Virus record (IMG/VR): IMGVR_UViG_3300045988_115142
Strand: one strand, 5' to 3'
From: a virus
DNA: 64,000 nt
The notes under the pieces were generated by a model. That model saw nothing but the letters and a program-made list of their open reading frames with translations. It was not told where the DNA came from and did no database searches. A program made the translations under genes and the position numbers. Positions 8,763-60,001 of this stretch are shown one piece after another (the first letter of the stretch is position 1; each line of letters opens with the position of its first letter).

Positions 8763-8786
8763 CCCGTACCCAATATTGGGTACGGG
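8763..8786 (-). terminator. palindromic hairpin cccgtacCCAATATTGGgtacggg
   Basis: Perfect inverted repeat 22 nt after the stop of 8808..9449, with a T-rich tract downstream on the minus strand. Confidence 0.65.
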
Positions 8787-8807
8787 ACAGTCTGTCGCAA
8801 AATTTAC

Positions 8808-42654: not shown

Positions 42655-42668
42655 ATTAGCAGTTCCTC

Positions 42669-43583: not shown

Positions 43584-43609
43584 GGAGTAGGCTAATATTA
43601 GCCTACTCC
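43584..43609 (-). terminator. palindromic hairpin ggagtagGCTAATATTAGCctactcc, overlapping the stop codon of 43598..44638
   Basis: Perfect inverted repeat. The TAA stop (43598..43600) and the last four codons (HGVG) lie inside the hairpin, and a T-rich tail follows on the minus strand. Confidence 0.6.
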
Positions 43610-44638: not shown

Positions 44639-44975
44639 CTACGATCTCTCCAATCACTAAATTCTTCATATATTGATCGAAAGAGCTAAAGTTATAGAAG
44701 TCTACAGAGGTGAAAGTATTATCATAAACCGAATCAACCATATTTATTTCATCTATAGTTACTAGGTTATTATAATTCTTATACACATTTGTATTTACTT
44801 CTTGGAATAGAATACTATCGCTAAATAACTTAGCTCCAAAGTGATTAATAAGAGTTTGGTTATATCTCTTGATAATCTCTTTTAAAATTAACTCGTTTTC
44901 GAAGTTAAGGTTACAATGAATATTAATAGTTTTATCTACGTTCTTTACATAAACGACTAAATTTATAAATTCCAT
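44631..44975 (-). CDS. hypothetical small protein between two radical SAM genes (114 aa)
   Basis: Translationally coupled on both sides. No motif recognised. It may be an rSAM partner or substrate. Confidence 0.6.
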   Translation of the reverse strand: MEFINLVVYVKNVDKTINIHCNLNFENELILKEIIKRYNQTLINHFGAKLFSDSILFQEVNTNVYKNYNNLVTIDEINMVDSVYDNTFTSVDFYNFSSFDQYMKNLVIGEIVGV

Positions 44976-44978
44976 ATT

Positions 44979-46139
44979 TTATCTATCTCTCGCTATCCAA
45001 CTAGGCATCCTGTTAGTTACTTCAGGATCATTAACAAAATTTAATCTACCTAAGATCTTTTTTGTTTGTTGCTCTGTAAGAGCTGGTGCTAGAGTTTCGA
45101 ATATATCACTTTCAAGTTTCTTGAAAGGATGAATATAACAACCCAACCCCTTATGTCTTGTGTAATAAAGCATCGCTGGACACTTATTACAATGGTATTG
45201 ATTACATCCACTACAACCATTATCCCATTCGGTGTAATCTTTGACAAACTTTTGCATTTTGTCATAATCAATACCGTCTTTTACTGTACCAATAATGAAG
45301 TTTTGTTTAAAATTTTCACTAAAAAGAGAACAAGGGTATACATCCCCTGGGGTAGTGACATAAATCATTTTTCCTAAGATCTCACATCCCAAATCGAACG
45401 GTTTCCCTGCGTTTAGAGCACGAGTATAATATAAATAGTTCCAATTTTCATAATCAAATGGTTCGTTATTATATAACTCTGCTATCTTAATAGCTTGGAC
45501 TTTAAACTTCTTGAGAAGTTCTTCATCATGGTAATACATTGGGTCTTCTTTAAGATATAGAGGATAATACTCTATCTTATTACAACCACAATCTCTTGCA
45601 TACTTAACGGAATCGTATAAGTCATCTACTGTTTCATGAGTAAGTGCTATTCTAAGTAAAATATCATTACGATATTTACTTGCCCCAAGTTTAGCTACTT
45701 GATCTCTAAAGAATTGATCATCATATTGGTGTAATTTAGAAAATCGAACTTTTGATGCGGAATATAAACCATCCCAAGACATCTTCATAGACCAAGAGTC
45801 TAATACATTATCATCTAGTAATTCAAAGATACCATCTAAGTTAGTACCATTTGTTACAGTAGATGCAATGACTCTTGTATCTTTATATCGTTCGATCTTC
45901 TTCATTTCCTTCATAAAAGATCTAATTTCATTACAGTATAGACTACATTCCCCGCCAGTAAGTTCAAAGTCTAATACTGGTCCGATATCCATAGTAAGCA
46001 ACAGTTTTCTAAGTTCCCTTGACTTATTAAATACATTAGATTTAGCCTTGGAATCTCTATCAGAGATAATACAATAGCTACAATCTAAGTTACAAAAGCT
46101 ACAGAACTTAATAAGCACATATTTTATAGTATCAAACAT
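44979..46139 (-). CDS. radical SAM / SPASM-domain protein (rSAM-C, 386 aa)
   Basis: CNLDCSYC (CX3CX2C), a GGE motif, and C-terminal DVYPCSLF ... CSGCNQYHCNKCPA. The N-terminus MFDTIKYVLIK is paralogous to MFDNFKSIMIK in rSAM-D. Confidence 0.8.
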   Translation of the reverse strand: MFDTIKYVLIKFCSFCNLDCSYCIISDRDSKAKSNVFNKSRELRKLLLTMDIGPVLDFELTGGECSLYCNEIRSFMKEMKKIERYKDTRVIASTVTNGTNLDGIFELLDDNVLDSWSMKMSWDGLYSASKVRFSKLHQYDDQFFRDQVAKLGASKYRNDILLRIALTHETVDDLYDSVKYARDCGCNKIEYYPLYLKEDPMYYHDEELLKKFKVQAIKIAELYNNEPFDYENWNYLYYTRALNAGKPFDLGCEILGKMIYVTTPGDVYPCSLFSENFKQNFIIGTVKDGIDYDKMQKFVKDYTEWDNGCSGCNQYHCNKCPAMLYYTRHKGLGCYIHPFKKLESDIFETLAPALTEQQTKKILGRLNFVNDPEVTNRMPSWIARDR

Positions 46140-46141
46140 GG

Positions 46142-47290
46142 TTATTCTACCGTTATATGCTTAAGATTTTCTAGATAGAAGTTATTCTTAAAGAAAGAAT
46201 CACAATCTTCTAGAGTACGGGATTCTACTACACCATTAAATGGATTTGTAGATACATCAGAACCTAATCTATCCGATAGAATAAACTCTTTATCTGTATC
46301 AGAAAGATATTTGATCTTAATATCTCTCATATAGTCACAGTAATCAGTGAGTTTAAGATATTTACGAATAAGGATAGCATACATAGCATGATTAGACTTA
46401 TCATAATAGCTTAACCCACGAAGAGTATTTTCTATATAATATAGAGAATCATTAATGTAATCTACAATAGTAGAAGTCATATGATGGAATGCTGTAAAAT
46501 CACCTTTGAATAGATATAGGTTATTTATAGTATCCATATATGATAATACAGAGAAACTGCAGTTATAGTATTGGAAAGATTTTTCATTTACAATACCATT
46601 TACTCTACCCAATAGATTAAGAATCTCTTGACTAGGTAATTTAGGGTTATTAACCATTACAGTTTGTACTGCTTCTAGATATGCTTCTAAGAAAGAGTTT
46701 TCGAAGATATCTGTATCATCATATACATTCAATTCATCTAATAATTGTAATGCTTGGTCTGCAAAAGATTTATCCCATTTCATATCAACGAAATTAATCT
46801 TAGTAGCAATTACATACAACTTAGCATGCATATATTTTAACCAAATATATTTAGAAAGATTCATCTCTTTCTTTTCTTCTAAACTAGTAGACTCAAATAA
46901 GTTTACATAAGGTTTCATATATTCGGTATATGTACCATCTTCATATGATTTATTAAGGATATTAGATAATAAGAAGAATTTATTTTCATAATCATAGACT
47001 TCAGAATTACCAGTTTCATACTTAACAATCATTTCTTGTTTAGAATACTTACCATTGTTGATTTTGTATTCTTCAATATAATTAGGTTTGTCTTTGAAGA
47101 AAGTTTCGATAAGTTTATCTAGTTTAATTCCTAGAGCTTTGATTTCATCATTATCTACCCAGTTAGTAGTGATAGCATGTTCAAATGTATTCTTCTCTGT
47201 ATAGATATCTTCCATTTGTTCAGAGATATCGATAAAATCTTGATTATCTTTAATTTCATCATAAAGACGTTCTGGTAAATAAAGGATCAT
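46142..47290 (-). CDS. hypothetical, predicted mostly helical protein (382 aa)
   Basis: GAAAGGAAGGA RBS. Its stop is 2 nt before the rSAM-C start, so they form an operon. No family recognised. Confidence 0.7.
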   Translation of the reverse strand: MILYLPERLYDEIKDNQDFIDISEQMEDIYTEKNTFEHAITTNWVDNDEIKALGIKLDKLIETFFKDKPNYIEEYKINNGKYSKQEMIVKYETGNSEVYDYENKFFLLSNILNKSYEDGTYTEYMKPYVNLFESTSLEEKKEMNLSKYIWLKYMHAKLYVIATKINFVDMKWDKSFADQALQLLDELNVYDDTDIFENSFLEAYLEAVQTVMVNNPKLPSQEILNLLGRVNGIVNEKSFQYYNCSFSVLSYMDTINNLYLFKGDFTAFHHMTSTIVDYINDSLYYIENTLRGLSYYDKSNHAMYAILIRKYLKLTDYCDYMRDIKIKYLSDTDKEFILSDRLGSDVSTNPFNGVVESRTLEDCDSFFKNNFYLENLKHITVE

Positions 47291-47716: not shown

Positions 47717-50347
47717 CTATTTTACAATTGTACCATAGTTGTCACGAGTATTGTCTTTATTAACACGTACACGTTCAACTTTATTAACAGCACCATCTTT
47801 ACCAGATAGACGATCTACACGGAAATGCATACCACTTCGTACTGTATCTAGTTCAACTTTGAATTCTTTGATAGCACGACCCATTTCTGGATGCATATAA
47901 CCAGCAGTAATAGCACGGTCTAAAGCTACTGCAAATTCATAGCGAGTTAAAGTAAGATCACCGTTGAAGTTTTTATCTGGATATCCAACGACAATACCTT
48001 TGTAAGCAAGATCTTGCACCATCATGTATGCCCAATGATTTTCTGGAACGTCAGGGAATACTACATCGGTAATTGCTTCATTACGACCCATAGCATGATC
48101 AATTAATGCATCGATCTTAGCATTTTGAGCGGCAACGATTGCACGAAGTTCTTCGATTTCCTTAGCCATAGCTACTTGTTTATTAGTATTCATTCTGGAA
48201 GATTTACCAAACTTCATGGATACACCAGCACCTACCATAGGTTCGCTACCAATAGTAGAAGATACTGTTACCATTGTGTTCTCATTAGGTTGATAAGCTA
48301 CACCGAGAGCACCGGCATTAGCACCTTTATAGTGACCATAACCTGCAGCGAAGCTCCATTTATCATCAGCATTGAAGTCTTGGTAATGTAAGTTAGCCAT
48401 AGCAGCAGCACGAGCACCAACTTTAGCTGTTTGAAGATCAGTATAATGGTTTGCTCTAGCTGTAGCAGCATTGGAAGTATTGTTAATACGATCGTTGATA
48501 TTCTTTTCAGTTTCACGTAATTGGTTAACGTTAACTGCATCAGTACCATCGATACCTTTATCAACGTTGATAATACGTTTACCGCCATTGTTTAATCCTT
48601 TATCTGTTAAGGAAATTTCATCAATAGGGTTTGCATCACCATCATTGGTTCTAATACGCATACCATCGTATTTGAAGCTAGTATGATATTCGCGATCAGT
48701 ACCACGGTAAGTCATATTAATACCTTCTGTTGTGTAAGAGGATTGACTATTTCCATCGTTTAAATTAACGGAATTAAGATCTCTTAAATCTTTAGATGTA
48801 GATACAGTGAAAGTACCATTATCTTCAGCAACTTCAATGTTGTCGCCAGCTTTTACGTATGTTTTATTTTCATTAACATAGCTTTTCAACTGTTTAACGT
48901 TAACTGCATCAGTATCTGCTACACCAGCTTTTACATTGTTGATGATTTGATCACCAGCACTGATACCATCTGTAGTGTAGTAAACTGTTTTATTACCTTC
49001 ACTAGCATACATACCAGTTTTGTCAAATTTTGCTTGATCTAATGTATCAGTATTTTCAATTTGAATACCATTTGATGTAACACCGATGTTTTCACTACCG
49101 TTGAAGAAACGAGCTCCATCTTTAGTAACAGTGGAACGTACATCATCGGTAGCTTTACCAAAGTTAACAGAATTCATTTCATTCAAATCTTTGTTTACAG
49201 CTACCTTATATTCAACACCACCAGCAGTATTTGTACCTGCAGTTACAGTTGTATTATCACCAGCAATTACAGAGGAATGTTTTTTAGCTTCTGTTTCAAC
49301 TACTTTTAACTGAGCTACATTAACTGCATCAGTATCTTCTGTACCAGCAGCTAAACCTGTTAGTTGACGAGTAACATTATTTTCTCTATCACCAACGGAT
49401 AAAGCACTCTTAGTAGATTTCCATGTAGCATCATCTTTACCTTCTGCTAAGTAACCAACTGTACCAGCTAATCTATCTGCTACACTATCGTCGCCTAATG
49501 CCATAGAACCAACACCAGTAGCTTTGGCTTTATTACCAATAGCAACTGCATAATCATTATCAGTTTTAGAATCCATACCAATAGCGATTGCACCATAACC
49601 ATTAGCTGTACCTTGAGCCATTGCTAAAGAGTACTTGCCATTAGCTGTAGAAGCACCACCGATAGCAGTAGCAGCGTAAGCTGTAGTAGATGCATGAGCA
49701 CCTAGAGAAACAGTGAAATAGTTATTAGTATTGGCTTTAGGACCAATTACGACAGATGCTCCTTTTCCAGCTTGAGCTAATTTAGCAGATGCACCTTCTC
49801 CCATGACAATGGACCACATTGCATTTTCAGCAATGATATCCCTACCATGAACCAAAGCACCATAGGAATTGGTTACATTGTTATGCTGACCCATTACAGT
49901 GGCGTGTGGAGAATTTTTAACTGTGATGTAATCCCCTTTAATCATGGTAGATCTGTCACCATACTTCTTAATGGATTCCTCATCATTTTCATTGGTAATG
50001 TGATTGCCAATCATAAGACCATAACTGGAATCTTTGATTTTTACTACATCACCAATTGCAATGTTTTCTACATTGCGACCAGATGGTGCAACTTCAGTAC
50101 CAGAGAAAATGTTATAAATATTGGTACCTGTATACTTGGACCATCCACCTAAGATGACATTATGTACTGTATTTTCATTTTTAGGTACTTCAGTATCTAC
50201 TTTTACATTACCTACAGTAGATACTAAATTGTAATTAGAACCTGCTGTATGATTATTTTCTAAAGTAATAATATTTTCTGCATTTGCACCAGCAGAAATA
50301 ACTGATAAAATAGCTGCAGTTAATAAAATTCTGTTGTTTGTTTTCAT
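47717..50347 (-). CDS. trimeric autotransporter adhesin (YadA-like) with post-anchor coiled coil and C-terminal SLH domain (876 aa)
   Basis: Signal peptide MKTNNRILLTAAILSVISAGANA; head repeats (AIAIG.DS.., AVAIGNKAKATGVGSMALG); three DTDAVNV.QL neck motifs. Anchor: ANLHYQDFNADDKWSFAAGYGHYKGANAGALGVAYQPNENTMV...GAGVSMKFG. Next come a coiled coil and FPDVPENHWAYMMVQDLAYKGIVVGYPD..F.GD..LTRYEFA (SLH, nt ~47925..48065). Confidence 0.85.
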   Translation of the reverse strand: MKTNNRILLTAAILSVISAGANAENIITLENNHTAGSNYNLVSTVGNVKVDTEVPKNENTVHNVILGGWSKYTGTNIYNIFSGTEVAPSGRNVENIAIGDVVKIKDSSYGLMIGNHITNENDEESIKKYGDRSTMIKGDYITVKNSPHATVMGQHNNVTNSYGALVHGRDIIAENAMWSIVMGEGASAKLAQAGKGASVVIGPKANTNNYFTVSLGAHASTTAYAATAIGGASTANGKYSLAMAQGTANGYGAIAIGMDSKTDNDYAVAIGNKAKATGVGSMALGDDSVADRLAGTVGYLAEGKDDATWKSTKSALSVGDRENNVTRQLTGLAAGTEDTDAVNVAQLKVVETEAKKHSSVIAGDNTTVTAGTNTAGGVEYKVAVNKDLNEMNSVNFGKATDDVRSTVTKDGARFFNGSENIGVTSNGIQIENTDTLDQAKFDKTGMYASEGNKTVYYTTDGISAGDQIINNVKAGVADTDAVNVKQLKSYVNENKTYVKAGDNIEVAEDNGTFTVSTSKDLRDLNSVNLNDGNSQSSYTTEGINMTYRGTDREYHTSFKYDGMRIRTNDGDANPIDEISLTDKGLNNGGKRIINVDKGIDGTDAVNVNQLRETEKNINDRINNTSNAATARANHYTDLQTAKVGARAAAMANLHYQDFNADDKWSFAAGYGHYKGANAGALGVAYQPNENTMVTVSSTIGSEPMVGAGVSMKFGKSSRMNTNKQVAMAKEIEELRAIVAAQNAKIDALIDHAMGRNEAITDVVFPDVPENHWAYMMVQDLAYKGIVVGYPDKNFNGDLTLTRYEFAVALDRAITAGYMHPEMGRAIKEFKVELDTVRSGMHFRVDRLSGKDGAVNKVERVRVNKDNTRDNYGTIVK

Positions 50348-50372
50348 TCGAAATGTCTCCTTTAATTAAAAA

Positions 50373-50396
50373 AAGAGCCTCAATTAAGAGGCTCTT
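50373..50396 (-). terminator. hairpin aagagcctc-aattaa-gaggctctt
   Basis: 9-bp stem followed by a T5 run on the minus strand, 13 nt after the stop of 50410..52209. Confidence 0.7.
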
Positions 50397-50409
50397 ATTT
50401 AAATATAAA

Positions 50410-52209
50410 TTATTTACCAGCTTTAAGCTCAGCCACTTCAGCAGTCAATTTATCTACTAAAGCTTCTAGTTTTTCAATTCGACTATCTTTGGATTTTGCT
50501 TCATTGATGTACTCAGAGCCTTTACCAGTTTTGAACGCTACACCCAAATTCATTTGAGGGTGTTTACCGAAGCTGATTGCACCGGAAATCATTGTTCTTT
50601 CGTTAGGACGGTAGAAAGCACCAACTGCTACAGCATTGGCATTTCTGTAATGACCAACGGATGCAGCATAGGAAGCTTTGTCATCTTTGTTGAAGTCCAA
50701 AGGATGCAAGCCAGCTAATGCTGCAGATTGAGCACCCACGTGTGCTACTTGGCTGTCAGTGTAGTTGTTAGCTTGATTAAGTGTATTGGAACCAACTTCG
50801 GCGATTTTGTTATTTAAATCACTTACTTTAGTATCAATCTTATTATCTAGATCAGATACTTTGATACCAATTTTGTTCGTTTCTTCGATAACAGAGTTCA
50901 ATTGGCTACCGTTTACAGCATCAGTAGAAGCTGTAGATACTCTACCAGCTGCTAGGTTAGTGATTGTACGTTCTTTACCAGCATCACCAATGGATACAGT
51001 ACCGATAGGATTGCTACCGGCAAATGTATGGGTATTACCATTGATTGTAGTAGATGCTGTACCAACTACAGTATCAGCATTGCTGTTATGACCAATAGCT
51101 ACAGATTCTTCTTTCACAACAGATGTATTATTACCGATAGCTACACTATAGTTAGCATTGCTGATTTGATTATCTGTACCAACCACTGTTACATGGTAAC
51201 TGTCTTGTGCAATGTTAGCATTGCCCATTACAGTATCGCCTTGTGGATCTTCCAAATGGTCACTATGTACAACATAGTTGTTACTGCCAACCATTGTGGA
51301 ATATTTACTTGCACCTTCATTAGATGTACCAATATTTACGGCATAAGTTCCTTCTGCAGAAACCATATGACCGATAGCCACAGAGCTAACACCTGTTGCA
51401 TTAGCGATAGAACCAACTGCTGTTGAGTTGTTACCTGCTTCATTACTGTTACCAATAGCTACACCATTGTCGAAAGTAGACTTACTGTGATCACCAACGA
51501 CAACACCACCAAAACTATTAGTGGAGCTATTATTACCAATAACGATACCATGACCGTTTGTATTTGTAATATCGGTACCGATACCAATACTACCTTTCTT
51601 ACCTGTTGTTACATTGTGACCAATAGCTAAGCTATTTTCTTCAGTGGCATTTGTTTGATTACCAATAGCGATAGAATTGTTAGCAGTGGCAATTGCTTCT
51701 TTACCGATAGCATATGTATTGTCGCCTTCTACTTTAGCATCTTCACCGAATACTAGTGAGTTTTTGCCTGTGAGTTTTGCTCTTTCGCCACCAGCGATAG
51801 AATTATCACTTCGGAAATCGATAGCATTATTATAACCAAATACTAATGTATTACTAGAGTGGCTAGCATTATAAATGCCACCAGCGATAGAATTATTCGC
51901 ATTCGTGATTGTATTATGGTCACCAGCCACTACAGAATTAGCTGAATTATTATTGTTACTAATACCGAAAGTTGCACTATTATGTGCATCAAGCTGAACA
52001 GTGTTATTTTCACCACCAGCAATAATATTAGTCAAATGACCGTGTGCTTGTGTAACATTTGTATCATGACCATAGATAATACTGTTTTTAACTGACTCGG
52101 CTACTGGATATTGACCAGTATGATAATCATGAGTAGTAGAATCTGCCGCCATAGCTGTAGTGGATAAGGTTGTCAATACCAAAGTTAGTAAAATTTTATT
52201 TGTTTTCAT
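50410..52209 (-). CDS. trimeric autotransporter adhesin (YadA-like) with post-anchor coiled coil (599 aa)
   Basis: Signal peptide MKTNKILLTLVLTTLSTTAMA and a long array of YadA-head-type repeats (NSIAIGNQ.., SVAIGH.., NSTAVGS..). Neck motif STDAVNGSQL. Anchor: LAGLHPLDFNKDDKASYAASVGHYRNANAVAVGAFYRPNERTMI...NLGVAFKTG, then RIEKLEALVDKLTAEVAELK. Confidence 0.85.
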   Translation of the reverse strand: MKTNKILLTLVLTTLSTTAMAADSTTHDYHTGQYPVAESVKNSIIYGHDTNVTQAHGHLTNIIAGGENNTVQLDAHNSATFGISNNNNSANSVVAGDHNTITNANNSIAGGIYNASHSSNTLVFGYNNAIDFRSDNSIAGGERAKLTGKNSLVFGEDAKVEGDNTYAIGKEAIATANNSIAIGNQTNATEENSLAIGHNVTTGKKGSIGIGTDITNTNGHGIVIGNNSSTNSFGGVVVGDHSKSTFDNGVAIGNSNEAGNNSTAVGSIANATGVSSVAIGHMVSAEGTYAVNIGTSNEGASKYSTMVGSNNYVVHSDHLEDPQGDTVMGNANIAQDSYHVTVVGTDNQISNANYSVAIGNNTSVVKEESVAIGHNSNADTVVGTASTTINGNTHTFAGSNPIGTVSIGDAGKERTITNLAAGRVSTASTDAVNGSQLNSVIEETNKIGIKVSDLDNKIDTKVSDLNNKIAEVGSNTLNQANNYTDSQVAHVGAQSAALAGLHPLDFNKDDKASYAASVGHYRNANAVAVGAFYRPNERTMISGAISFGKHPQMNLGVAFKTGKGSEYINEAKSKDSRIEKLEALVDKLTAEVAELKAGK

Positions 52210-52231
52210 TCGAAATTCCTCCTTAAAAAGT

Positions 52232-52253
52232 AAAGCCTCGATTAAGAGGCTTT
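52232..52253 (-). terminator. hairpin aaagcctc-gattaa-gaggcttt
   Basis: 8-bp stem nearly identical to the 50373..50396 hairpin, 11 nt after the stop of 52265..53779. Confidence 0.65.
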
Positions 52254-52264
52254 ATAAAGTATAA

Positions 52265-53779
52265 TTATTTATTTTCTAAAGCTTTATGAAGTTCTTGATT
52301 ATCTTTAAGCAACTTATCTACAATTGCTTTCAAATCATCAATTTCTTTTGCCATTTTTAATGGACTCTTATAAGTAGAACCTTTAGCTCCTACCTTATAC
52401 GATATACCGGCATTTACCATAGTATCTTTACCATTGATAGTAGTACCGAAAGTAACCATTGTATTTTCATTTGGTCTATGAGATACACCAAGTGCTACAG
52501 CAGTTTTACCTTTATAATGACCAACTCCAGCCATGATATCTGTCTTATGATCTGGGTTATAATCAAGTGGGTGTAAAGCTGCTAGAGCAGCTGCATTAGC
52601 ACCTACTTTAGCTACTTGCATATCCGTGTAATGGTTAGCTTGGTTAATGGTATTAGTAGCAATATCAGTAACTTTATTTTCTAAAGTTGTAATACGACCT
52701 TCATGATTACCTAATACTTCTTTATTTTTATCTACTTTAGCACTGATATCATTGATACGATTTTCATTTGTATCAATACGTTTAGAATTATCATTAACTT
52801 TATTTCCTACTTCTTTTAGTTGGCTTACGTTAACAGCATCGGTATCTTTTTCACCACGGCTAACATTGGTAATTTTCTTACCACCATTATTTAATCCATC
52901 AGCGGTTAAAGTGATTTCATCGATTGGTCGGGCATTACCATCATTAGTAGCGATACGAATTCCATTATAATTATAAGTAGTATTATATACAGGTTCTGTA
53001 CCATCACCACGGTGCACCATAGAAATACCTTCTGTTGTATAATGAGATTCATTATTACCGTCATTTAAATTAACAGAATTAAGATTTAAATCTTTATTCA
53101 TTGATACAGTATAGAAACCATCTTCACCATCGACTACAATGTTATCATCACCAGATTGTACAACAGTGTGTTTTTGGGCTTCCATCATAACATCATACAA
53201 TTGGCTACCATTAACAGCGTCTGTAGATTTAGCGGAAATTTCACCAGCACCTACATTTTGTAGTTGACGTGTGAAAACTCGGAATTTTGCTTCTGGTGTA
53301 GTACCTTTATCATAGAATGGTGCATAGCTGCTACCAATACTGAATACACCTTGATTTGTTTTTACGCCAGCATACTTACTATCAACTTTGTGCACATCAT
53401 CGTATGCCATACTATAAGCACCAATAGCTACAGATGCGTCGCCAAAAGATTGAGCAAGGTATCCAATTGCTGTACCTGCTCTAACATCTACTTTTGTATG
53501 ATCACCAATAGCGATATTCCCTTTATTTTCAGGGGAGAAGGAATATATCCCACTTGTTTCTTCTTCATTATAGGTACGAGCATGGGAATACACATGGTTA
53601 CCAATAGTTACAGATGAATATCCAGCAACATTATTAGAGTTACCGAGAACAATATTATTCTCACCTTCAACTTGATTTAAGTTACCAGATACTTGATTTG
53701 TAGTGTCTGCTGCGAAAGCAGTTGTGCCTAAAGATGCAATAATAGCTGTTGTTAATAAAAATTTGTTTGTTGTTTTCAT
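52265..53779 (-). CDS. trimeric autotransporter adhesin (YadA-like) with post-anchor coiled coil (504 aa)
   Basis: Signal peptide MKTTNKFLLTTAIIASLGTTAFA; head repeats; STDAVNGSQL and DTDAVNVSQL neck motifs. Anchor: LAALHPLDYNPDHKTDIMAGVGHYKGKTAVALGVSHRPNENTMV...NAGISYKVG, then EIDDLKAIVDKLLKDNQELHKALE. The stalk segment is paralogous to one in 47717..50347. Confidence 0.85.
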   Translation of the reverse strand: MKTTNKFLLTTAIIASLGTTAFAADTTNQVSGNLNQVEGENNIVLGNSNNVAGYSSVTIGNHVYSHARTYNEEETSGIYSFSPENKGNIAIGDHTKVDVRAGTAIGYLAQSFGDASVAIGAYSMAYDDVHKVDSKYAGVKTNQGVFSIGSSYAPFYDKGTTPEAKFRVFTRQLQNVGAGEISAKSTDAVNGSQLYDVMMEAQKHTVVQSGDDNIVVDGEDGFYTVSMNKDLNLNSVNLNDGNNESHYTTEGISMVHRGDGTEPVYNTTYNYNGIRIATNDGNARPIDEITLTADGLNNGGKKITNVSRGEKDTDAVNVSQLKEVGNKVNDNSKRIDTNENRINDISAKVDKNKEVLGNHEGRITTLENKVTDIATNTINQANHYTDMQVAKVGANAAALAALHPLDYNPDHKTDIMAGVGHYKGKTAVALGVSHRPNENTMVTFGTTINGKDTMVNAGISYKVGAKGSTYKSPLKMAKEIDDLKAIVDKLLKDNQELHKALENK

Positions 53780-53941: not shown

Positions 53942-55006
53942 TTAGAATTTATCGTTTGTATTAATACTTTCTAGTGGAGTAATATTATGCTCACGTTGAG
54001 TCCATGCTGTATAGTCTAAATATTTCTTAAGAAGTATTTTCTTTTCTTCAGGAGTTAATGAAGCTAAGAAGTTCTTAATGGTTTTACCGAATATCTTAGT
54101 TATACGACATGTGCAATCTAAATAATGGTTCTCCCAGTCATCACCGAACTTCTCATAACGTTCATATCGACAACCACCATCACAGATTGCTCCAAATTCA
54201 CATTTTTGACAATCTTCATGTTTACATCTACGCTGAGCTCTAGTATCATCTAATCGAACTAGTTGTTGACTCATAGCAGTACAGTTATTTTGAATACCTT
54301 CTGGAGATATTGTAGTATATTTACCAATATCACAACTACAGAAACTACGATCTTGCCTTAACCATGCTCCAATCTTATTTAAATGCTCTACATAGAGCTT
54401 ATCTAAATCGAATGTATAAGGCAATTGTTTCTCTAGTTCTTCATAGAAGTCTTCAGAATAGTTTTCACCATGAGCAATAACGAATTCACCATTAGCTTTA
54501 CCAGGATATTTTGTATCGTATTTAAGAGCTTTGAAATGATCATGTATTTCTTTAAGTTTATAAATATTCTCGTTATTTACTACAGTCTTAATATCGAATG
54601 TAATACCTTGCTCCAAAGCATATTCAATATTAGCATTAACTTTTTCTGCAATAGAATTACCATGTATATCAACACGGCTAGTAGTAAATCCATCCCAAGA
54701 TAGTTGTACTTCGTTAAGTTTATATTGTTTATGGAATTCAATAAATTCTTTAAAGTTAGCCATAGTAGATGTGACTACTTGGAATTTACATTTTCCATAG
54801 TATTTCTTAACCGTATATTCAATTAAGTCTAATCGAAGGAGAGGCTCACCTCCAAAGAATATAATCCTTGAAGGTTTAAGCTCTTCCATGTATTTATCAA
54901 TCTGCTCTATAGTCATATCCTTAGAATGGAAGTCTATATAACAGTACTTACAACGATTAGGACAATTATTGGTTAAGAAGAAGAAATATTCTCTATAATT
55001 ATCCAT
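53942..55006 (-). CDS. radical SAM / SPASM-domain protein (rSAM-B, 354 aa)
   Basis: CPNRCKYC (CX3CX2C) at residues 15-22, an FFGGEPLL motif, and C-terminal CQKCEFGAICDGGC (canonical SPASM CX2CX5CX3C). Confidence 0.85.
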   Translation of the reverse strand: MDNYREYFFFLTNNCPNRCKYCYIDFHSKDMTIEQIDKYMEELKPSRIIFFGGEPLLRLDLIEYTVKKYYGKCKFQVVTSTMANFKEFIEFHKQYKLNEVQLSWDGFTTSRVDIHGNSIAEKVNANIEYALEQGITFDIKTVVNNENIYKLKEIHDHFKALKYDTKYPGKANGEFVIAHGENYSEDFYEELEKQLPYTFDLDKLYVEHLNKIGAWLRQDRSFCSCDIGKYTTISPEGIQNNCTAMSQQLVRLDDTRAQRRCKHEDCQKCEFGAICDGGCRYERYEKFGDDWENHYLDCTCRITKIFGKTIKNFLASLTPEEKKILLKKYLDYTAWTQREHNITPLESINTNDKF

Positions 55007-55023
55007 AGAATCTCCTATAAGAA

Positions 55024-56352
55024 TTAAGACATACCACAGTTTTGGTTATGACATGTATTAGAATAACAACCTTGGCAAGATAACTGACAAGTAGATTGAC
55101 AGTGGGTTTGACATGTGATATTACAATATCCATTATCATCCCACCAGTTGTTATATGTGTCAAGTTGTTGAGAAATTCTACGAAGATATTCAGCAATCAA
55201 TGCCCATTTAGAAGCATATACTGTTTCACCAGCATTTACATGCTCAATTGTAAAGTTTGTAGTTGGGTCAGAGACTGCTTTAGTAACACGACGTAGTGTA
55301 TTATTACAGATTTGAACTGTAGTAGCATCTTCTTGAGTGGCAATACGGAAACCGTGTAAAATAGAACGGTTTTCACAAGCTGTGGAAGAATTCGCTGGAT
55401 CGTAGTTAAGTGTACAAATACGAGCGTCTTGTTTTAATACAGCTTCCATGTTTACAACAGCTTGGAATTTCACATTATAAATAGTTTCAGCTTCTGTAAA
55501 TACAGGTACTGTTTTATCAGTATTTGCAATTTCAGCGTATGAATGGTTATGGTCTGCTGTTTCTTTAATAGAAGCTCGTTCAATTGAATATACAGTGCTA
55601 CCTACAGTAACAGCAAACCCAGACATATCTTCAGGGAAATCAGATAATTGATTTTCAAATACGATAAAGTTACTTGGATTACCGACTTTAGTAGCAGTAT
55701 CTGTAGTACCATTATATGCTTGAGCTGTTAATAAACCAATTACTTTAAAATCTTTAGTAATATTTCTACCAATGTAATGAATAGTATTGCCAGGCATATT
55801 GCCGAAATGTTCTACTTCTGCACCAGAAATAGATTTAGCGATTCTAGCATCCATATTGGAATAACCAGATACTCTAATACCTTGACCAGAAGCTGTAGTA
55901 TATTTAACAAGCTTAGAATCTAGATTAGTACTCAATACAGGAGAAGTGCCTACACCTGCATCTAGAGGAACGATCTTTTCATTTCTCCAGTAAGTACATT
56001 CTTCACGTACTTCTACTGTATTAATAGGTGCAATGGTTCTAACCAAGTCAGCTGTAGTATCGATAATAAGGTTTACATCATTAGCTTTAAGAGTACCATC
56101 TTCTTCATTTACAGAACGTTGAGCTTCTTGAAGACGTCTTTCTAAATCTGTATTTTCAATACCACTTAATTGAGCATAACGAGTACCAGTCTTTTCTTGC
56201 CAAGGATGTTCTTTAGCACGTTTAATGGAATCTCGTTCATTTAAGTTAGTTAGAATAATATCAATAATAGAGCTAAAATAAGTTCTACCTGGGAATGTCC
56301 CTTTATTAGGTTTTCTAGCTTCTACATAAATGACTTTATGTCTATTAGCCAT
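55024..56352 (-). CDS. 442-aa protein of unknown fold ending in a SCIFF/ranthipeptide-like Cys-rich tail
   Basis: AGGAGA RBS. The last 36 aa are NGYCNITCQTHCQSTCQLSCQGCYSNTCHNQNCGMS, with 8 Cys spaced CX3CX3CX3CX3CX2CX4CX4C (nt ~55027..55134). Radical SAM/SPASM genes lie on both sides. Confidence 0.8.
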   Translation of the reverse strand: MANRHKVIYVEARKPNKGTFPGRTYFSSIIDIILTNLNERDSIKRAKEHPWQEKTGTRYAQLSGIENTDLERRLQEAQRSVNEEDGTLKANDVNLIIDTTADLVRTIAPINTVEVREECTYWRNEKIVPLDAGVGTSPVLSTNLDSKLVKYTTASGQGIRVSGYSNMDARIAKSISGAEVEHFGNMPGNTIHYIGRNITKDFKVIGLLTAQAYNGTTDTATKVGNPSNFIVFENQLSDFPEDMSGFAVTVGSTVYSIERASIKETADHNHSYAEIANTDKTVPVFTEAETIYNVKFQAVVNMEAVLKQDARICTLNYDPANSSTACENRSILHGFRIATQEDATTVQICNNTLRRVTKAVSDPTTNFTIEHVNAGETVYASKWALIAEYLRRISQQLDTYNNWWDDNGYCNITCQTHCQSTCQLSCQGCYSNTCHNQNCGMS

Positions 56353-56363
56353 AATATTCTCCT

Positions 56364-56786
56364 TTATTTTCTAGCAAATTTATCTTCATCCGTTATATAA
56401 AGATCTATACGGATTTCTTTATTTGTTATACGTCGATATACCTCTTTACCGAATATAGATAAAATAAAGTATTCTAATATTTCTTTAGCCTTATCTTTAT
56501 CTATATTATTTATCTTATTAAAAGTAAGATTAATACCAACGTTAGTCGATGTCTTTACATCACTATACCCATCTTGGTCTGGGAAGTTTACAAAAGCAGA
56601 GCTTAAAGTAGAGAATTCATCTTCTTTTACTTTATATTGGATATCGTAAGTATTAGAAGTCAATCTAACTATTTTACAACTATATCCTGCTATATTTGTA
56701 ATTCTATCCAAACCAATAGAAATAGTCCAAGTACTAGGAGAATATAATTCACATTCTACACGCTTTACAGCATTTTCAGAATCCAT
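56364..56786 (-). CDS. hypothetical 140-aa protein in the rSAM cassette
   Basis: Its ATG overlaps the stop of rSAM-A (TAATG). No motif recognised. It could be a chaperone or adaptor for the modification. Confidence 0.65.
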   Translation of the reverse strand: MDSENAVKRVECELYSPSTWTISIGLDRITNIAGYSCKIVRLTSNTYDIQYKVKEDEFSTLSSAFVNFPDQDGYSDVKTSTNVGINLTFNKINNIDKDKAKEILEYFILSIFGKEVYRRITNKEIRIDLYITDEDKFARK

Positions 56787-58189
56787 TATAATTCCTCTTC
56801 TATTACTTTAGTAACAACAGCATCTTCTGGTTTAATTTGAGATAGATATAAATCTTCTACACCTTGAGCTGCTAATACTTTAGCAGATTTATCTATAATA
56901 GCATTGGTGAAGTAATCCTTAAAGGATCCAATAATATTTTCTTCACCAAGGTTTTTAATCATAGCATCTACATGAGCTAAGGATACAGTGAAAGTAAGTT
57001 CATCATTTACATCAATATTCTTAAAGACAGTATCGATATAATCTTTGATCTTAAGATTTTCAATCAAAACATTCAAAGTTCTACTACGAACGTTAGTTGC
57101 AGTAATGAATTTGTGTTGATATTTCTTAACTGCTTTTACCATAGCTCGTTTAACTGCACAGTAAGCATCAGATGGAGTATCTACATTACCAGTTTGACGA
57201 ATGTTTTCTTCAGGACAACCAGAAGCACAGATGGATTTACCGATACAAGTTTCACATTCTTCTTTAATATACTTAGCTGGGTTTACACCACCAGTAAGCA
57301 TAGAACGATCTACACCTGTATAGATATTACCAATCTTTTGATCTTCTTTGTGTTCTTTTTCAGAAGTTGGTAATTGATGACAAGGATAGATATCACCATT
57401 GATATCAAATGCACACCAACGAGTAGAACCAATTGGACACATTTGTGGTGTATATACATCTGGTTCTAATACATTAAGAAGAATCTCATCTGTATTCTTG
57501 ATAGAGAAGTTTTCTGTAGAGTTATCATCGTTTAATTTAGTAACGTATAACTCCATGAGATCTTCCATATACTTTTCAAGACCTTTGAGTTGTTCTTCAT
57601 TCCATTCTGTATCAGTTACAGGACATGGAGCAATATTAGTAAAGCCCATATCTAAGAATTCTTTAACACCATCAATAGCTTTATCAATATCTTCAGGAAG
57701 AATAGTCATACGGACTTCTACAAAGATACCAAGACCATTATCAATTAACTTCTTGATATTATCAGATACGATATCATAACTATTAGAACGATTCTTATCA
57801 TGGATTTCTTTCTTACCATCTACAGATACCAATAAATGAAGTTCATTGTCATCAATGTATTCCATAATCTCATCTGTAAGGATAGTAAGGTTGGTTGTAA
57901 CACCATAAAAGATTTCGTAACCTTTTTTATTACAATGATCGATTACATCTTTCATACATTTCCAATTTAAGAAAGGTTCACCACCAAAGAAGTTCAACAT
58001 GAACTTACCATGGGATTCTTTATTTCTACTATTGTATGCTTTATCTACAATATCAATAGCAGTTTTGGAATCCATCATTTCTGGTTGTTTATTATGCTCG
58101 AAGCAGTATATACAGCTAAGATTGCAGTTATTAGTAACGTTGATTGTAATGGAGTCGCACTTATAGACATCCTCAAACTTTTCTAACAT
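56786..58189 (-). CDS. radical SAM / SPASM-domain protein with ~115-aa C-terminal extension (rSAM-A, 467 aa)
   Basis: CNLSCIYC (CX3CX2C) at residues 22-29, an FFGGEPFL motif, CAFDINGDIYPC, and CETCIGKSICASGC (CX2CX5CX3C) followed by a downstream YCAV. AAGGAGA RBS. Confidence 0.85.
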   Translation of the reverse strand: MLEKFEDVYKCDSITINVTNNCNLSCIYCFEHNKQPEMMDSKTAIDIVDKAYNSRNKESHGKFMLNFFGGEPFLNWKCMKDVIDHCNKKGYEIFYGVTTNLTILTDEIMEYIDDNELHLLVSVDGKKEIHDKNRSNSYDIVSDNIKKLIDNGLGIFVEVRMTILPEDIDKAIDGVKEFLDMGFTNIAPCPVTDTEWNEEQLKGLEKYMEDLMELYVTKLNDDNSTENFSIKNTDEILLNVLEPDVYTPQMCPIGSTRWCAFDINGDIYPCHQLPTSEKEHKEDQKIGNIYTGVDRSMLTGGVNPAKYIKEECETCIGKSICASGCPEENIRQTGNVDTPSDAYCAVKRAMVKAVKKYQHKFITATNVRSRTLNVLIENLKIKDYIDTVFKNIDVNDELTFTVSLAHVDAMIKNLGEENIIGSFKDYFTNAIIDKSAKVLAAQGVEDLYLSQIKPEDAVVTKVIEEEL

Positions 58190-59710: not shown

Positions 59711-60001
59711 CTAAGCGTATACAGCTTTAGCTTTTTGCCAGCCGTTATTATAAGTACACATGAAAGTATACTTAGGACCTAAAACAATTGCGATCTCTTT
59801 ATTGTTTTGAGGGTTAGGGATACTAGCTACATCGTTTACTACACTTAAACGAATACCATTTAACTTAGCTTCAATTTCAGCTACTTTATTTTTGAATGTT
59901 TCGAGATCGTCTTTAGATACGCTTCGTTTAAGCATAGCTTGTAGACTTGGGGCAAGATCGTCATAAGAAATCTTGTCATTGTCTTTAAAACTAGCCATCA
60001 T
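59711..60001 (-). CDS. small fibre-associated protein with YDDLAPSLQAMLK motif (96 aa)
   Basis: AGGAGG RBS. There are two adjacent ATGs (60001 and 59998), so the start is uncertain by one codon. This is the first gene of the minus-strand block. Confidence 0.7.
   Translation of the reverse strand: MMASFKDNDKISYDDLAPSLQAMLKRSVSKDDLETFKNKVAEIEAKLNGIRLSVVNDVASIPNPQNNKEIAIVLGPKYTFMCTYNNGWQKAKAVYA

What the first reader, a model, noticed from the sequence alone, without database searches (positions are those of the whole stretch)
53942..58189. Phage cassette: a 442-aa protein ending in a SCIFF/ranthipeptide-like Cys tail, bracketed by two radical SAM/SPASM enzymes
Seen in sequence: four tightly coupled minus-strand genes. 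They are rSAM-A (CNLSCIYC plus CETCIGKSICASGC), a 140-aa unknown, a 442-aa protein, and rSAM-B (CPNRCKYC plus CQKCEFGAICDGGC). The 442-aa protein ends in ...YCNITCQTHCQSTCQLSCQGCYSNTCHNQNCGMS, with 8 Cys in 33 residues in a CX3C periodicity. Established knowledge: radical SAM/SPASM enzymes install thioether cross-links in sactipeptides and ranthipeptides. As I recall it, the SCIFF core is GGCGECQTSCQSACKTSCTVGNQ.C. The stretch CQTHCQSTCQLSC here matches CQTSCQSACKTSC at 10 of 13 positions. Inference: the substrate motif is not on a ~45-aa leader peptide. It is fused to the C-terminus of a full-size protein inside a phage fibre/virion gene block, and both enzymes lack an N-terminal RRE-sized extension because their CX3CX2C motif sits at residues ~15-29. 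This suggests radical-SAM thioether stapling of a phage, possibly virion, protein. Alternatively, a modified peptide could be released from a large carrier. Protein-sized rSAM/SPASM substrates have a precedent in QhpC/QhpD, but I know of no phage structural example.
Basis: partly seen in the sequence, partly recalled or inferred. Interest (0 to 1): 0.92.

Follow-up and report, generated by a model that had tools for sequence, protein, structure and literature searches.

The report
Phage protein tail with radical-SAM maturases
A roughly 254-kb human-associated phage, and many related phages, encode a protein family ending in an invariant eight-cysteine tail, always next to up to four radical-SAM enzymes of the type that makes sulfur-to-carbon staples, which suggests an unreported way of hard-wiring a phage protein, though the chemistry is untested.

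Summary
Four tightly coupled minus-strand genes lie at 53942-58189: rSAM-A, a 140-aa ORF, a 442-aa protein with eight Cys in its last 33 residues, and rSAM-B.

The unit is larger than reported. It continues at 43598-47290 with a TPR-like 382-aa protein, rSAM-C, a 114-aa protein and rSAM-D. Three inserted YadA-type adhesin genes split it here. Four related contig types (49-286 kb) carry the parts contiguously.

- **Substrate.** The last 70 residues (helix plus C-x3-CQ-x2-CQ-x2-CQ-x2-CQ-x-C-x4-CH[ND]Q[NKH]CG) are a conserved C-terminal module. It occurs on more than 100 protein clusters of 71-950 aa. Eight Cys, one His and one Gly are invariant in 113 tails.
- **Linkage.** In 77 of 78 viral loci with room upstream, an rSAM gene lies within 600 bp upstream of the tail gene.
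- **Enzyme.** rSAM-A's closest solved relative is the SCIFF maturase CteB, without CteB's leader-binding RRE domain.
- **Family membership.** The tail resembles the SCIFF core only in a profile-profile comparison. No SCIFF, PapB, QhpD or CXXX-repeat model reaches its cut-off.

Best reading: phage-encoded radical-SAM cross-linking (probably thioether) of a protein-borne, SCIFF-like tail. No protease or exporter was detected. The chemistry and any virion location are unproven. I found no paper describing it. I rate it a new variant of a known kind, interest 0.8.

The parts
56786..58189 (-). rSAM-A (467 aa): CteB/PapB-like radical SAM/SPASM enzyme. It lacks an RRE and has a ~110-aa C-terminal extension.
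   Evidence: PF04055 scores 64 bits. NCBIfam: PapB 206.6 bits, QhpD 166.7, ScfB 138.3, all below cut-off. PDB: CteB 5WGG at E 1e-29, query 13-351 against CteB 98-442. C22/C26/C29 and seven SPASM Cys are conserved in 5 of 5 orthologs. An rSAM gene lies within 600 bp upstream of the tail gene in 77 of 78 loci, and where typed it is the rSAM-A type.
56364..56786 (-). 140-aa ORF. It is specific to this lineage and is not a conserved part of the system.
   Evidence: No family hit. phmmer finds it only in the loci of the same phage, L008-L025. In relatives rSAM-A abuts the tail gene directly.
55024..56352 (-). 442-aa Cys-tail protein. It has N-terminal helices carrying an invariant NERDS motif, an inserted beta-sandwich, a C-terminal helix and an 8-Cys tail.
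   Evidence: ORF. Fourteen homologs and alignment A1. AF2 model with pLDDT 75, tail below 40. No significant fold match. No Pfam, NCBIfam or PHROG family.
55027..55242 (-). Conserved C-terminal module (residues 371-442): a recognition-type helix plus the Cys/Gln ladder core. The core occupies 55027-55125.
   Evidence: Translation. The module is found at the C-terminus of more than 100 clusters of 71-950 aa. Frequency table of 113 tails. hhalign against SCIFF gives 92.8% probability.
53942..55006 (-). rSAM-B (354 aa): a divergent radical SAM/SPASM enzyme.
   Evidence: PF04055 scores 61.5 bits. Only core-level NCBIfam hits of about 48 bits. No PDB hit. C15/C19/C22 and eight C-terminal Cys are conserved. 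Orthologs follow the tail gene in relatives.
47717..53779 (-). Three YadA-type trimeric autotransporter adhesin genes inserted between the two halves of the system. They are not part of it.
   Evidence: Pfam YadA_head, YadA_stalk and YadA_anchor; SLH in the 876-aa protein. Absent from this position in L001, L004, L005 and L007. Higher G+C, 0.37-0.38. A terminator-like hairpin lies between adjacent adhesin genes (52254-52231 and 50396-50373).
46142..47290 (-). 382-aa all-alpha, TPR-like repeat protein. It is a conserved accessory of the system.
   Evidence: Orthologs in L001, L004, L005, L007, L026, L028, L041, L050, L076 and L087. AF2 model with pLDDT 83 and pTM 0.85. The nearest folds are TPR, 14-3-3, Rap and KLC solenoids, none significant. 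No Pfam or PDB sequence hit.
44979..46139 (-). rSAM-C (386 aa): radical SAM enzyme with a SPASM/twitch-type C-terminus.
   Evidence: PF04055 scores 31.5 bits; SPASM scores 20.4 bits, just below cut-off. PapB family 85 bits. Conserved Cys. Orthologs in all related loci.
44631..44975 (-). 114-aa protein conserved between rSAM-C and rSAM-D. Function unknown.
   Evidence: Orthologs in L001, L005, L007, L076 and L082. No RRE/PqqD or other family hit.
43598..44638 (-). rSAM-D (346 aa): radical SAM enzyme with a SPASM-type C-terminus.
   Evidence: PF04055 scores 41 bits. PapB family 103.9 bits and CXXX-repeat maturase 73.7 bits, both below cut-off. Conserved Cys.
37252..43427 (-). Conserved downstream neighbours: a 252-aa protein and a 1812-aa repeat-rich fibre-like protein.
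   Evidence: Orthologs directly follow rSAM-D in L001, L005 and L007.

Best explanation
This is a phage-encoded protein-maturation system, not a classical RiPP cluster.

**Substrate.** It is a phage protein family with four parts:
- An N-terminal helical module (M-A-N-R-G-x-V-x-Y ... N-E-R-D-S).
- A variable or absent middle domain. Here it is a 250-residue beta-sandwich.
- A conserved amphipathic helix.
- An extreme C-terminal core: C-x3-CQ-x2-CQ-x2-CQ-x2-CQ-x-C-x4-CH[ND]Q[NKH]CG.

**Proposed mechanism.** Every step here is inferred; none was observed.
- rSAM-A is a CteB/PapB-like SPASM enzyme without an RRE. I propose it binds the helix-plus-core module. Binding could go through its own C-terminal extension or through the TPR-like 382-aa protein.
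- It would use 5'-deoxyadenosyl-radical chemistry to join Cys sulfur to side-chain carbons of neighbouring residues. The near-invariant Gln of each CQ unit, or the NxxC-like site, are candidate acceptors.
- The result would be a ladder of small thioether rings.
- rSAM-B, rSAM-C and rSAM-D would add further or different links on the same tail.
- No protease or exporter is detectable, so the cross-linked tail probably stays on the protein.

**Likely role.** The genes sit in the fibre and host-recognition block. The protein is therefore most likely a virion or adsorption-apparatus component whose tip is stapled. Such a staple would survive the reducing, anaerobic habitat, where disulfides would not.

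**Shown:** gene content, motif invariance, the near-invariable gene linkage (77 of 78 loci), enzyme class, absence of the RRE, and restriction to phage contigs.

**Inferred:** substrate identity, thioether chemistry, retention on the protein, and virion location.
For: **Linkage**
- An rSAM gene lies within 600 bp upstream of the tail gene in 77 of 78 IMG/VR and metagenome loci with room upstream.
- These loci cover 24 distinct tails on proteins of 136-503 aa, and one to four further rSAM genes usually lie within 5 kb.
- The one exception is the second of two tail genes in a single system.

**Synteny**
- The order rSAM-A, tail, rSAM-B, 380-aa protein, rSAM-C, 110-aa protein, rSAM-D is kept in three contig types of 49-286 kb (L001-L003, L005/L006, L007).
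- The more divergent 241-kb contig L004 carries the same families in a rearranged order with extra genes.

**Tail conservation**
- Eight Cys, one His and one Gly are invariant, and the Gln positions are 88-99% conserved, in 113 unique tails.
- The rest of the protein falls to 27% identity.
- The number of repeats expands in some members, for example P0013, P0028 and P0029. This fits a model of one ring per repeat.

**Enzyme class**
- rSAM-A's best families are PapB, QhpD, nif11 and ScfB.
- Its best solved structure is CteB at E 1e-29, aligned without CteB's RRE.
- All four rSAM families keep CX3CX2C and the auxiliary-cluster Cys.

**SCIFF similarity.** The core resembles SCIFF in a profile-profile comparison at 92.8% probability and E 4e-7. 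Seven of 28 tails hit PF13165 below threshold.

**Candidate substrates.** The tail is the only Cys-dense candidate substrate in the 64-kb window.

**No release machinery detected.** The conserved 382-aa accessory is a TPR-like solenoid, not a protease.

**Phage restriction.** The motif is almost absent from 185,579 species genomes. There are two hits, both on metagenome-assembled contigs (a 283-kb contig and a 5-kb contig).
Against: - No chemistry was observed.
- The window's own tail gives no SCIFF hit in Pfam or NCBIfam. The hhalign score concerns a short, compositionally biased, periodic segment.
- All enzyme scores fall below the family cut-offs.
- The tail lacks the Asp/Glu acceptors that PapB uses (PMC12373016), so the acceptor residue is a guess.
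- AF2 gives no confident structure for the tail (pLDDT below 40).
- The fold of the 442-aa protein matches no known virion protein. No cultured phage or virion proteome contains it.
- A Cys-x3-Cys ladder could also bind metals.
- Four enzymes for one 33-residue tail remains unexplained.
Confidence: 0.6

Rival explanations
1. The tail is a metal-binding or Fe-S-binding module, or a disulfide or metal-bridged oligomerisation ladder. A Cys at every fourth residue would lie along one face of a helix. The neighbouring rSAM enzymes would then act on something else, or the tail protein would serve them as an electron or cluster donor.
For: Eight invariant Cys plus one invariant His. AF2 tentatively draws residues 412-425 as a helix. 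No SCIFF HMM hit for the window's tail. rSAM enzymes need a reductant (established knowledge).
Against: - This does not explain why an rSAM gene lies just upstream of the tail gene in 77 of 78 loci.
- It does not explain why the Gln after each Cys is 88-99% conserved.
- The spacing is not a known ferredoxin (CxxCxxCxxxCP) or zinc-ribbon pattern (own knowledge).
- Variable domains of 0-800 residues on an electron carrier would be odd.
Confidence: 0.13
2. This is a true RiPP route. The 70-residue module is a leader-plus-core that is modified and then cut from its carrier protein. That would release a SCIFF-like cross-linked peptide acting as a signal, toxin or anti-competitor factor.
For: The module is the size of a whole SCIFF precursor and resembles its core. 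A conserved W-[WF]-D-x-N-G precedes the first Cys. UniProt auto-annotation already calls one such phage protein 'Six-cysteine peptide SCIFF' (A0A8S5UTL8).
Against: - No protease, peptidase-ABC exporter or immunity gene is detectable in any of the loci examined.
- The conserved accessory is a TPR-like solenoid.
- The family also conserves its N-terminal module, and the genes sit among fibre genes. Both points argue that the whole protein is the functional unit.
Confidence: 0.12
3. The rSAM enzymes perform a different radical modification on the tail or on other module proteins, rather than forming thioethers. Candidates are C-C cross-links, epimerisation, or formylglycine-type oxidation of Cys as done by anSME.
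For: SPASM enzymes carry out many chemistries. rSAM-B, rSAM-C and rSAM-D have no assignable family. anSME is among the weaker hits, at 88.7 bits and PDB 4K37.
Against: rSAM-A scores much higher with the thioether-forming families PapB, QhpD and ScfB/CteB than with anSME or cyclophane-forming enzymes. The substrate is Cys-rich with a SCIFF-like core and has no C/S-x-P-x-R sulfatase motif (seen directly in the sequence).
Confidence: 0.1

Closest known systems
SCIFF / ScfB (CteA/CteB) six-cysteine ranthipeptide system of Clostridia
   Same: - A Cys-rich core with CX3C periodicity and CQ units.
- Core profiles align at 92.8% probability.
- CteB is the closest solved relative of rSAM-A (E 1e-29).
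- The enzyme gene lies next to the substrate gene.
   Different: - The substrate is a protein of 125-950 aa, not a 45-aa peptide.
- It has eight Cys, not six, plus an extra invariant CH[ND]Q[NKH]CG end.
- The SCIFF leader MKHIKTLN...KKGG is absent.
- There is no RRE on the enzyme.
- There are up to four (occasionally five) rSAM genes instead of one.
- It is encoded by phages.
- PF13165, TIGR03973 and TIGR03974 thresholds are not met.
PapA/PapB (freyrasin) ranthipeptide system
   Same: - PapB is the best-scoring NCBIfam family for rSAM-A, rSAM-C and rSAM-D, over the full model length.
- The core is tandemly repeated, which suggests one ring per repeat.
- PapB makes six thioethers in one peptide (PMC12373016).
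   Different: - Scores are below cut-off (206.6 against 340).
- PapB links Cys to Asp/Glu residues C-terminal of the Cys and relies on RRE-leader docking (PMC12373016).
- The phage tail has almost no acidic residues, and rSAM-A has no RRE.
QhpC/QhpD (quinohemoprotein amine dehydrogenase gamma-subunit maturation)
   Same: An rSAM/SPASM enzyme installs several Cys thioethers in a protein subunit that stays part of a larger assembly. QhpD is the second-best family for rSAM-A, at 166.7 bits.
   Different: - The score is below cut-off (453).
- QhpC is a small dedicated enzyme subunit cross-linked to Asp/Glu (own knowledge).
- There is no amine dehydrogenase context, and the tail motif is different.
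CXXX-repeat peptide / TIGR04115 maturase systems
   Same: The substrate has a Cys at every fourth residue in tandem. TIGR04115 and TIGR04119 give weak hits for rSAM-A, rSAM-C and rSAM-D.
   Different: Scores are far below cut-off (113.7 against 350). Those systems are bacterial small-peptide systems of unknown chemistry (own knowledge).
Multi-rSAM clusters in cultured jumbo or large phages (Ralstonia RP12/RP31; Campylobacter CP220/CPt10)
   Same: Several SPASM-type rSAM genes lie together near virion genes in large phages. Their function is unknown (PMC5468394).
   Different: They share only 20-25% identity with rSAM-A. No Cys-ladder tail gene lies within 6 kb.

Membership tests
Radical SAM superfamily (PF04055) | A CX3CX2C motif for the SAM-binding [4Fe-4S] cluster, and an HMM score above the gathering threshold. 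| tested here: met
   rSAM-A scores 64.1 bits, rSAM-B 61.5, rSAM-D 41.1 and rSAM-C 31.5, against a cut-off of 29.5. The CX3CX2C motif is invariant in 5 of 5 orthologs of each family.
SPASM subfamily (PF13186 / TIGR04085) | A C-terminal seven-Cys motif (CX9-15GX4C ... CX2CX5CX3C ... C) for two auxiliary clusters. | tested here: inconclusive
   By sequence, rSAM-A and rSAM-B carry the full seven- or eight-Cys pattern, conserved in orthologs. The PF13186 HMM is sub-threshold for rSAM-C and rSAM-D (20.4 and 16.7 bits against 21.5). It is not reported for rSAM-A or rSAM-B at E<=0.01. rSAM-C and rSAM-D have variant spacing, CX2-3CX4CX2C.
SCIFF precursor (PF13165 / TIGR03973) | An HMM match above threshold. 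| tested here: not met
   The 442-aa protein and its 58- and 72-residue tails give no hit. Seven of 28 related tails hit PF13165, with a best E of 0.0018. hhalign between the core profiles gives 92.8% probability over 27 columns.
SCIFF precursor (PF13165 / TIGR03973) | A precursor of about 45 aa with the leader MKHIKTLN...KKGG and six Cys. | tested here: not met
   The protein is 442 aa (family range 71-950). It has eight Cys and a different preceding helix.
ScfB SCIFF maturase (TIGR03974) | An equivalog HMM score of at least 425 bits and an N-terminal RRE. | tested here: not met
   The score is 138.3 bits. The alignment starts at model position 98, so the RRE is absent.
PapB ranthipeptide maturase (NF047865) | An equivalog HMM score of at least 340 bits. 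| tested here: not met
   rSAM-A scores 206.6 bits, rSAM-D 103.9, rSAM-C 85.1 and rSAM-B 47.7.
PapB ranthipeptide maturase (NF047865) | A substrate with Cys-X3-Asp/Glu acceptor motifs. | tested here: not met
   The tail core has no Asp or Glu at repeat positions in the window sequence. Glu replaces Gln in only a few of the 113 tails. PapB chemistry is taken from PMC12373016.
QhpD (TIGR03906) | An equivalog HMM score of at least 453 bits and a qhp operon context. | tested here: not met
   The score is 166.7 bits. No amine dehydrogenase genes lie nearby.
Anaerobic sulfatase maturase (TIGR03942) | An equivalog HMM score of at least 349 bits and a sulfatase substrate. | tested here: not met
   The score is 88.7 bits for rSAM-A and 40 bits or less for the others. 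No sulfatase is present in the window.
Ranthipeptide / sactipeptide class (functional definition) | Cys sulfur linked to an alpha-, beta- or gamma-carbon of another residue. | not testable with these tools
   This needs mass spectrometry or NMR on the modified protein.
Phage virion / fibre protein | Homology or fold similarity to a known structural protein, or detection in virions. | tested here: inconclusive
   No PHROG, Pfam or PDB fold match. BFVD matches only uncharacterised small Caudovirales proteins. The neighbourhood has fibre, tailspike and decoration-type hits. No proteome is available.

The most novel reading that the evidence does not exclude
Large phages of anaerobes make a virion (fibre or adsorption) protein whose C-terminal Cys/Gln ladder is converted into a stack of thioether rings. 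A dedicated set of phage-encoded, RRE-less radical SAM enzymes and a TPR-like presenter protein would do this. If so, RiPP-type radical chemistry has been taken over for covalent, redox-proof stapling of viral structural proteins. I know of no viral structural protein matured by radical SAM chemistry.
Probability: 0.35. Interest if true: 0.92.

Novelty: new variant of a known kind. Interest (0 to 1): 0.8.

Why it matters
- **For radical SAM enzymology.** It would extend thioether maturation from small leader-dependent peptides to full-size proteins. Recognition would work without an RRE, and up to four paralogous enzymes would act on one substrate. That is a natural test bed for how SPASM enzymes find substrates.
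- **For phage biology.** It would add a new covalent protein-stabilisation chemistry beside HK97-type isopeptide chainmail and disulfides. Thioethers would suit the reducing, anaerobic habitats these phages probably occupy.
- **Prevalence.** The system is common. The cluster of the window's protein has 1,062 member sequences. There are more than 100 clusters at 50% identity. Many of the matching viral contigs are 200-290 kb long.
- **For engineering.** The self-contained 70-residue C-terminal module could serve as a genetically encoded tag for enzymatic stapling of arbitrary proteins.

Tried and rejected
- **GenBank phage searches.** blastn and tblastn of the cassette, the 442-aa protein and the tail found nothing. 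The low-complexity filter may mask the tail, so absence there is weak evidence.
- **Distant rSAM-A hits in cultured or named phages.** I inspected Phass-1, RP12 and CPt10. None has a Cys tail nearby. GenBank record MT835472 holds a genuine SCIFF plus ScfB pair, which is unrelated to this system.
- **Fold of the 442-aa protein.** Foldseek gave no significant PDB match.
- **Tail profile against PDB sequences.** It found only a chance Nuf2 match.
- **The 382-aa protein as a possible protease.** Rejected: it is an all-alpha, TPR-like solenoid with no Pfam or PDB sequence hit.
- **The 114-aa protein as a stand-alone RRE.** No PqqD or winged-helix support beyond one weak Sar hit at E 0.011.
- **The 140-aa ORF as a system component.** Rejected: it is specific to this lineage.
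- **Related-loci scan of bacterial genomes.** I replaced it with an exact degenerate DNA pattern, which covers only the canonical spacing.
- **Literature.** Eight searches found no description of the system.

Full report
**1. The observation**

- rSAM-A, 56786-58189, 467 aa.
- A 140-aa ORF, 56364-56786.
- A 442-aa ORF, 55024-56352.
- rSAM-B, 53942-55006, 354 aa.

The junctions are a one-base overlap and gaps of 11 and 17 nt. A terminator-like hairpin lies just upstream of rSAM-A at 58288-58263, and none lies inside the block. The quoted motifs are all present.

The 442-aa protein ends ...YCNITCQTHCQSTCQLSCQGCYSNTCHNQNCGMS, with eight Cys in 33 residues. It is the only Cys-dense stretch of a non-enzyme ORF in the whole window. 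Both enzymes pass Pfam Radical_SAM.

One correction: against the real SCIFF consensus retrieved here (MKHIKTLN.K.LK.T.KKGGCGECQTSCQSACKTSCTVGNQ.CEN), the 13-residue comparison gives 9 identities, not 10.

**2. The unit is larger than reported**

PHROG and NCBIfam scans show two more radical SAM genes in the window:
- rSAM-C, 44979-46139.
- rSAM-D, 43598-44638.

Between them lies a 114-aa gene, and upstream lies a 382-aa gene.

In related metagenomic contigs both halves are contiguous. The relatives share 27-41% identity in the tail protein and sit on contigs of 49 to 286 kb. In three of the four contig types the order is rSAM-A, tail protein, rSAM-B, ~380-aa protein, rSAM-C, ~110-aa protein, rSAM-D, ~240-aa protein, giant fibre-like protein. 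Each gene is orthologous to its window counterpart. The more divergent 241-kb contig L004 carries the same families in a different order, with extra genes.

In the window the two halves are separated by three YadA-type trimeric autotransporter adhesin genes (47717-53779). These genes have a higher G+C, and a terminator-like hairpin lies between adjacent adhesin genes. That is an insertion, not part of the system. The 140-aa ORF exists only in this phage lineage.

**3. The substrate is a protein family**

A profile of the 442-aa family was searched against 1.84 billion representative proteins and found 125 proteins. About 100 of them, 71 to 950 aa long, share only the last ~70 residues. That module is an amphipathic helix (...L..IS..LD.Y..WWD.NG) followed by the Cys core at the extreme C-terminus.

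In 113 unique canonical tails the core is C-x3-CQ-x2-CQ-x2-C(Q/M)-x2-CQ-x-C-x4-C-H-(N/D)-Q-(N/K/H)-C-G plus 2-3 residues. Eight Cys, the His and the Gly are invariant, and the Gln positions are 88-99% conserved.

- Some members expand the CQxx unit to 13 or more copies (P0013, P0028, P0029).
- Many members also share an N-terminal module: M-[AP]-x-R-G-x-V-x-Y, a helix ending NL.E, then NP.
- The family therefore has two conserved ends and a variable or absent middle. The smallest members are 125-200 aa.
- In the window protein the middle is a 250-residue beta-sandwich. AF2 models it with confidence, but it has no significant PDB match. The tail itself is modelled at pLDDT below 40.

**4. Linkage to the enzymes**

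A scan of IMG/VR with the tail profile returned 101 confirmed loci, of which 80 were kept. HMMs of the four rSAM ortholog groups were run on all ORFs of these loci.
- Across 24 distinct tails, 77 of 78 loci with at least 1.5 kb upstream have an rSAM gene within 600 bp upstream on the same strand. Where typed it is the rSAM-A type, usually 0-4 bp away.
- One to four further rSAM genes usually lie within 5 kb.
- The one exception is the second tail gene of a locus that has two, and rSAM-B follows it directly.
- One locus shows only rSAM-A within 8 kb downstream. The minimal pair is therefore rSAM-A plus the tail protein.
- The 382-aa family recurs in most systems.

An exact degenerate-DNA pattern for the canonical tail found two hits in 185,579 species-representative genomes. 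Both are metagenome-assembled contigs: a 283-kb contig that carries an rSAM-like gene next to the tail gene, and a 5-kb contig. The module is therefore essentially confined to phage sequence.

**5. The enzymes**

| Enzyme | Best family evidence |
|---|---|
| rSAM-A | PapB 206.6 bits (cut-off 340); QhpD 166.7; nif11-type 153.4; ScfB 138.3; anSME 88.7 |
| rSAM-B | Only the radical SAM core is recognisable, about 48 bits; no PDB hit |
| rSAM-C | PapB family 85 bits |
| rSAM-D | PapB family 104 bits |

- rSAM-A aligns over its whole catalytic region with the thioether-forming SPASM maturases.
- Its closest solved structure is CteB, the SCIFF maturase (5WGG, E 1e-29).
- That alignment runs from rSAM-A residue 13 to CteB residue 98. 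The N-terminal RRE of CteB, ScfB and QhpD is therefore missing.
- rSAM-A instead has a ~110-residue C-terminal extension. It is present in all orthologs and conserved at 35% identity, against 57% in the core.
- All four families keep CX3CX2C and 5-8 C-terminal Cys in every ortholog.

**6. Is the tail a SCIFF?**

By the family models, no.
- Neither Pfam PF13165 nor NCBIfam reports the window's tail, even at E<=10.
- Seven of 28 diverse tails reach PF13165 below threshold, with a best E of 0.0018.
- A profile-profile comparison of tails and genuine SCIFF sequences aligns 27 core columns at 92.8% probability. That segment is short, periodic and Cys-rich, so it does not prove homology.
- The SCIFF leader, its six-Cys count and its size are all different. 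The invariant CH[ND]Q[NKH]CG end has no SCIFF counterpart.
- In BFVD, a 200-aa phage protein with this tail already carries the automatic name 'Six-cysteine peptide SCIFF'. The resemblance has therefore been picked up by software, but I found no paper that discusses it.

**7. Accessory proteins**

- The 382-aa protein folds as an all-alpha helical repeat (pLDDT 83, pTM 0.85).
- Its nearest, non-significant structural neighbours are peptide-binding solenoids: TPR domains, 14-3-3, Rap proteins and kinesin light chain.
- It is not a protease. A role in presenting the tail to RRE-less enzymes is my inference.
- The 114-aa protein has no detectable RRE/PqqD similarity.
- No peptidase, exporter or immunity gene was recognised in any locus.

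**8. Context and host**

- The window matches IMG/VR viral genomes of about 254 kb.
- The surrounding genes include a pectate-lyase-like tailspike, Ig-like decoration or fibre proteins, a 1812-aa repeat protein and an NHL/beta-propeller protein.
- Several sample identifiers are of the Human Microbiome Project type. I did not verify the body site.
- One inserted adhesin combines a YadA anchor with an SLH domain. From my own knowledge, that architecture is typical of Negativicutes such as Veillonella. This is only a hint about the host.

**9. Mechanism and rivals**

- **Best supported (0.6).** rSAM-A and its paralogs covalently cross-link the protein-borne Cys/Gln ladder, most likely through thioethers. 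The product stays on a fibre-region protein.
- **Metal-binding or Fe-S ladder (0.13).** It fits the invariant Cys and His. It does not explain the near-invariable gene linkage or the conserved Gln.
- **Release of a SCIFF-like peptide (0.12).** It fits the size of the module. It lacks a protease and does not explain the conserved N-terminal module.
- **A different radical chemistry (0.10).** It cannot be excluded, especially for rSAM-B, rSAM-C and rSAM-D.
- Which residue accepts the sulfur is unknown. PapB-type Asp/Glu acceptors (PMC12373016) are absent. The conserved Gln, and the NxxC-like N-Q-N-C near the end, are candidates only.

**10. Novelty**

Eight literature searches found no description of this system. 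Multi-rSAM clusters in cultured large phages (RP12/RP31, CP220/CPt10) are distant, lack the tail and are unstudied.

The chemistry class and the enzyme superfamily are known. These features are new:
- The substrate architecture.
- The absence of an RRE.
- The set of four paralogous enzymes.
- The TPR-like partner.
- The restriction to phages.

I rate it a new variant of a known kind, with high interest. The central chemical claim is still untested.

Noticed in passing
window 47717-53779 (-): Three YadA-type trimeric autotransporter adhesin genes of 876, 599 and 504 aa lie in the middle of the rSAM system. Each has an N-terminal signal-like sequence. The 876-aa protein adds an SLH domain after the membrane anchor. 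G+C is 0.37-0.38 against about 0.31-0.33 nearby. A terminator-like hairpin lies between adjacent adhesin genes (52254-52231 and 50396-50373). They look like host-derived morons and hint at a Negativicutes (Veillonella-type) host.
   Followed up: partly
window 37252-42690 (-): A 1812-aa protein is made largely of tandem units of about 20-30 residues (…AKTTEV[ED]xKLADYAKKTELPS[IV]EGL…). Orthologs of about 1,400-2,100 aa follow the rSAM module in relatives. It is probably a giant fibre.
   Followed up: no
window 59711-60001, 58764-59699 (-) and 61802-63742 (+): Three proteins of 96, 311 and 646 aa share a [IV]xY[DE]DL[AT]xxLQxM motif. The 646-aa protein also has an NHL/Vgb-lyase-type beta-propeller. 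The same trio flanks the rSAM module in all relatives.
   Followed up: partly
window 19269-22313 (-): A 1014-aa protein has a strong DUF285 / BspA-type leucine-rich-repeat region (236 bits). Such repeats are typical of surface proteins of oral and mucosal bacteria, and here they are phage-encoded.
   Followed up: no
L092 (Ralstonia phage RP12, NC_041911.1 84042-89152): This cultured phiKZ-like jumbo phage has three SPASM-type rSAM genes and a 382-aa hypothetical gene next to virion structural genes. No Cys-ladder protein lies within 6 kb. Its substrate is unknown and it may be an analogous system.
   Followed up: partly
L091 (MT835472.1, 'Bacteriophage sp.', locus ~7480-9100): An unannotated 91-kb contig from a human faecal virome carries a genuine SCIFF precursor (MKHIKTLNTRKLQNTVKKGGCGECQTSCQSACKTSCTVGNQTCEHCK) directly upstream of an ScfB-like gene.
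   Followed up: no
L004 11296-12961: In a 241-kb relative, two HNH endonuclease genes are inserted between the tail gene and rSAM-B. Its tail has the CQxx unit expanded to about 13 copies. The locus also holds an extra rSAM gene and two paralogs of the 382-aa protein.
   Followed up: no
L076 9806-10692 and L050 8588-12021: Some systems carry two tail-bearing genes. L076 has tandem genes of 136 and 163 aa. L050 has genes of 521 and 203 aa.
   Followed up: no
L088 (Phage Phass-1, OQ749652.1): This human-gut phage is filed in GenBank under the 'Caudoviricetes code 15 clade' (TAG recoded) and has suppressor tRNAs. Its distant rSAM-A homolog (27% identity) appears split in the standard-code annotation, and no Cys tail lies nearby.
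   Followed up: partly
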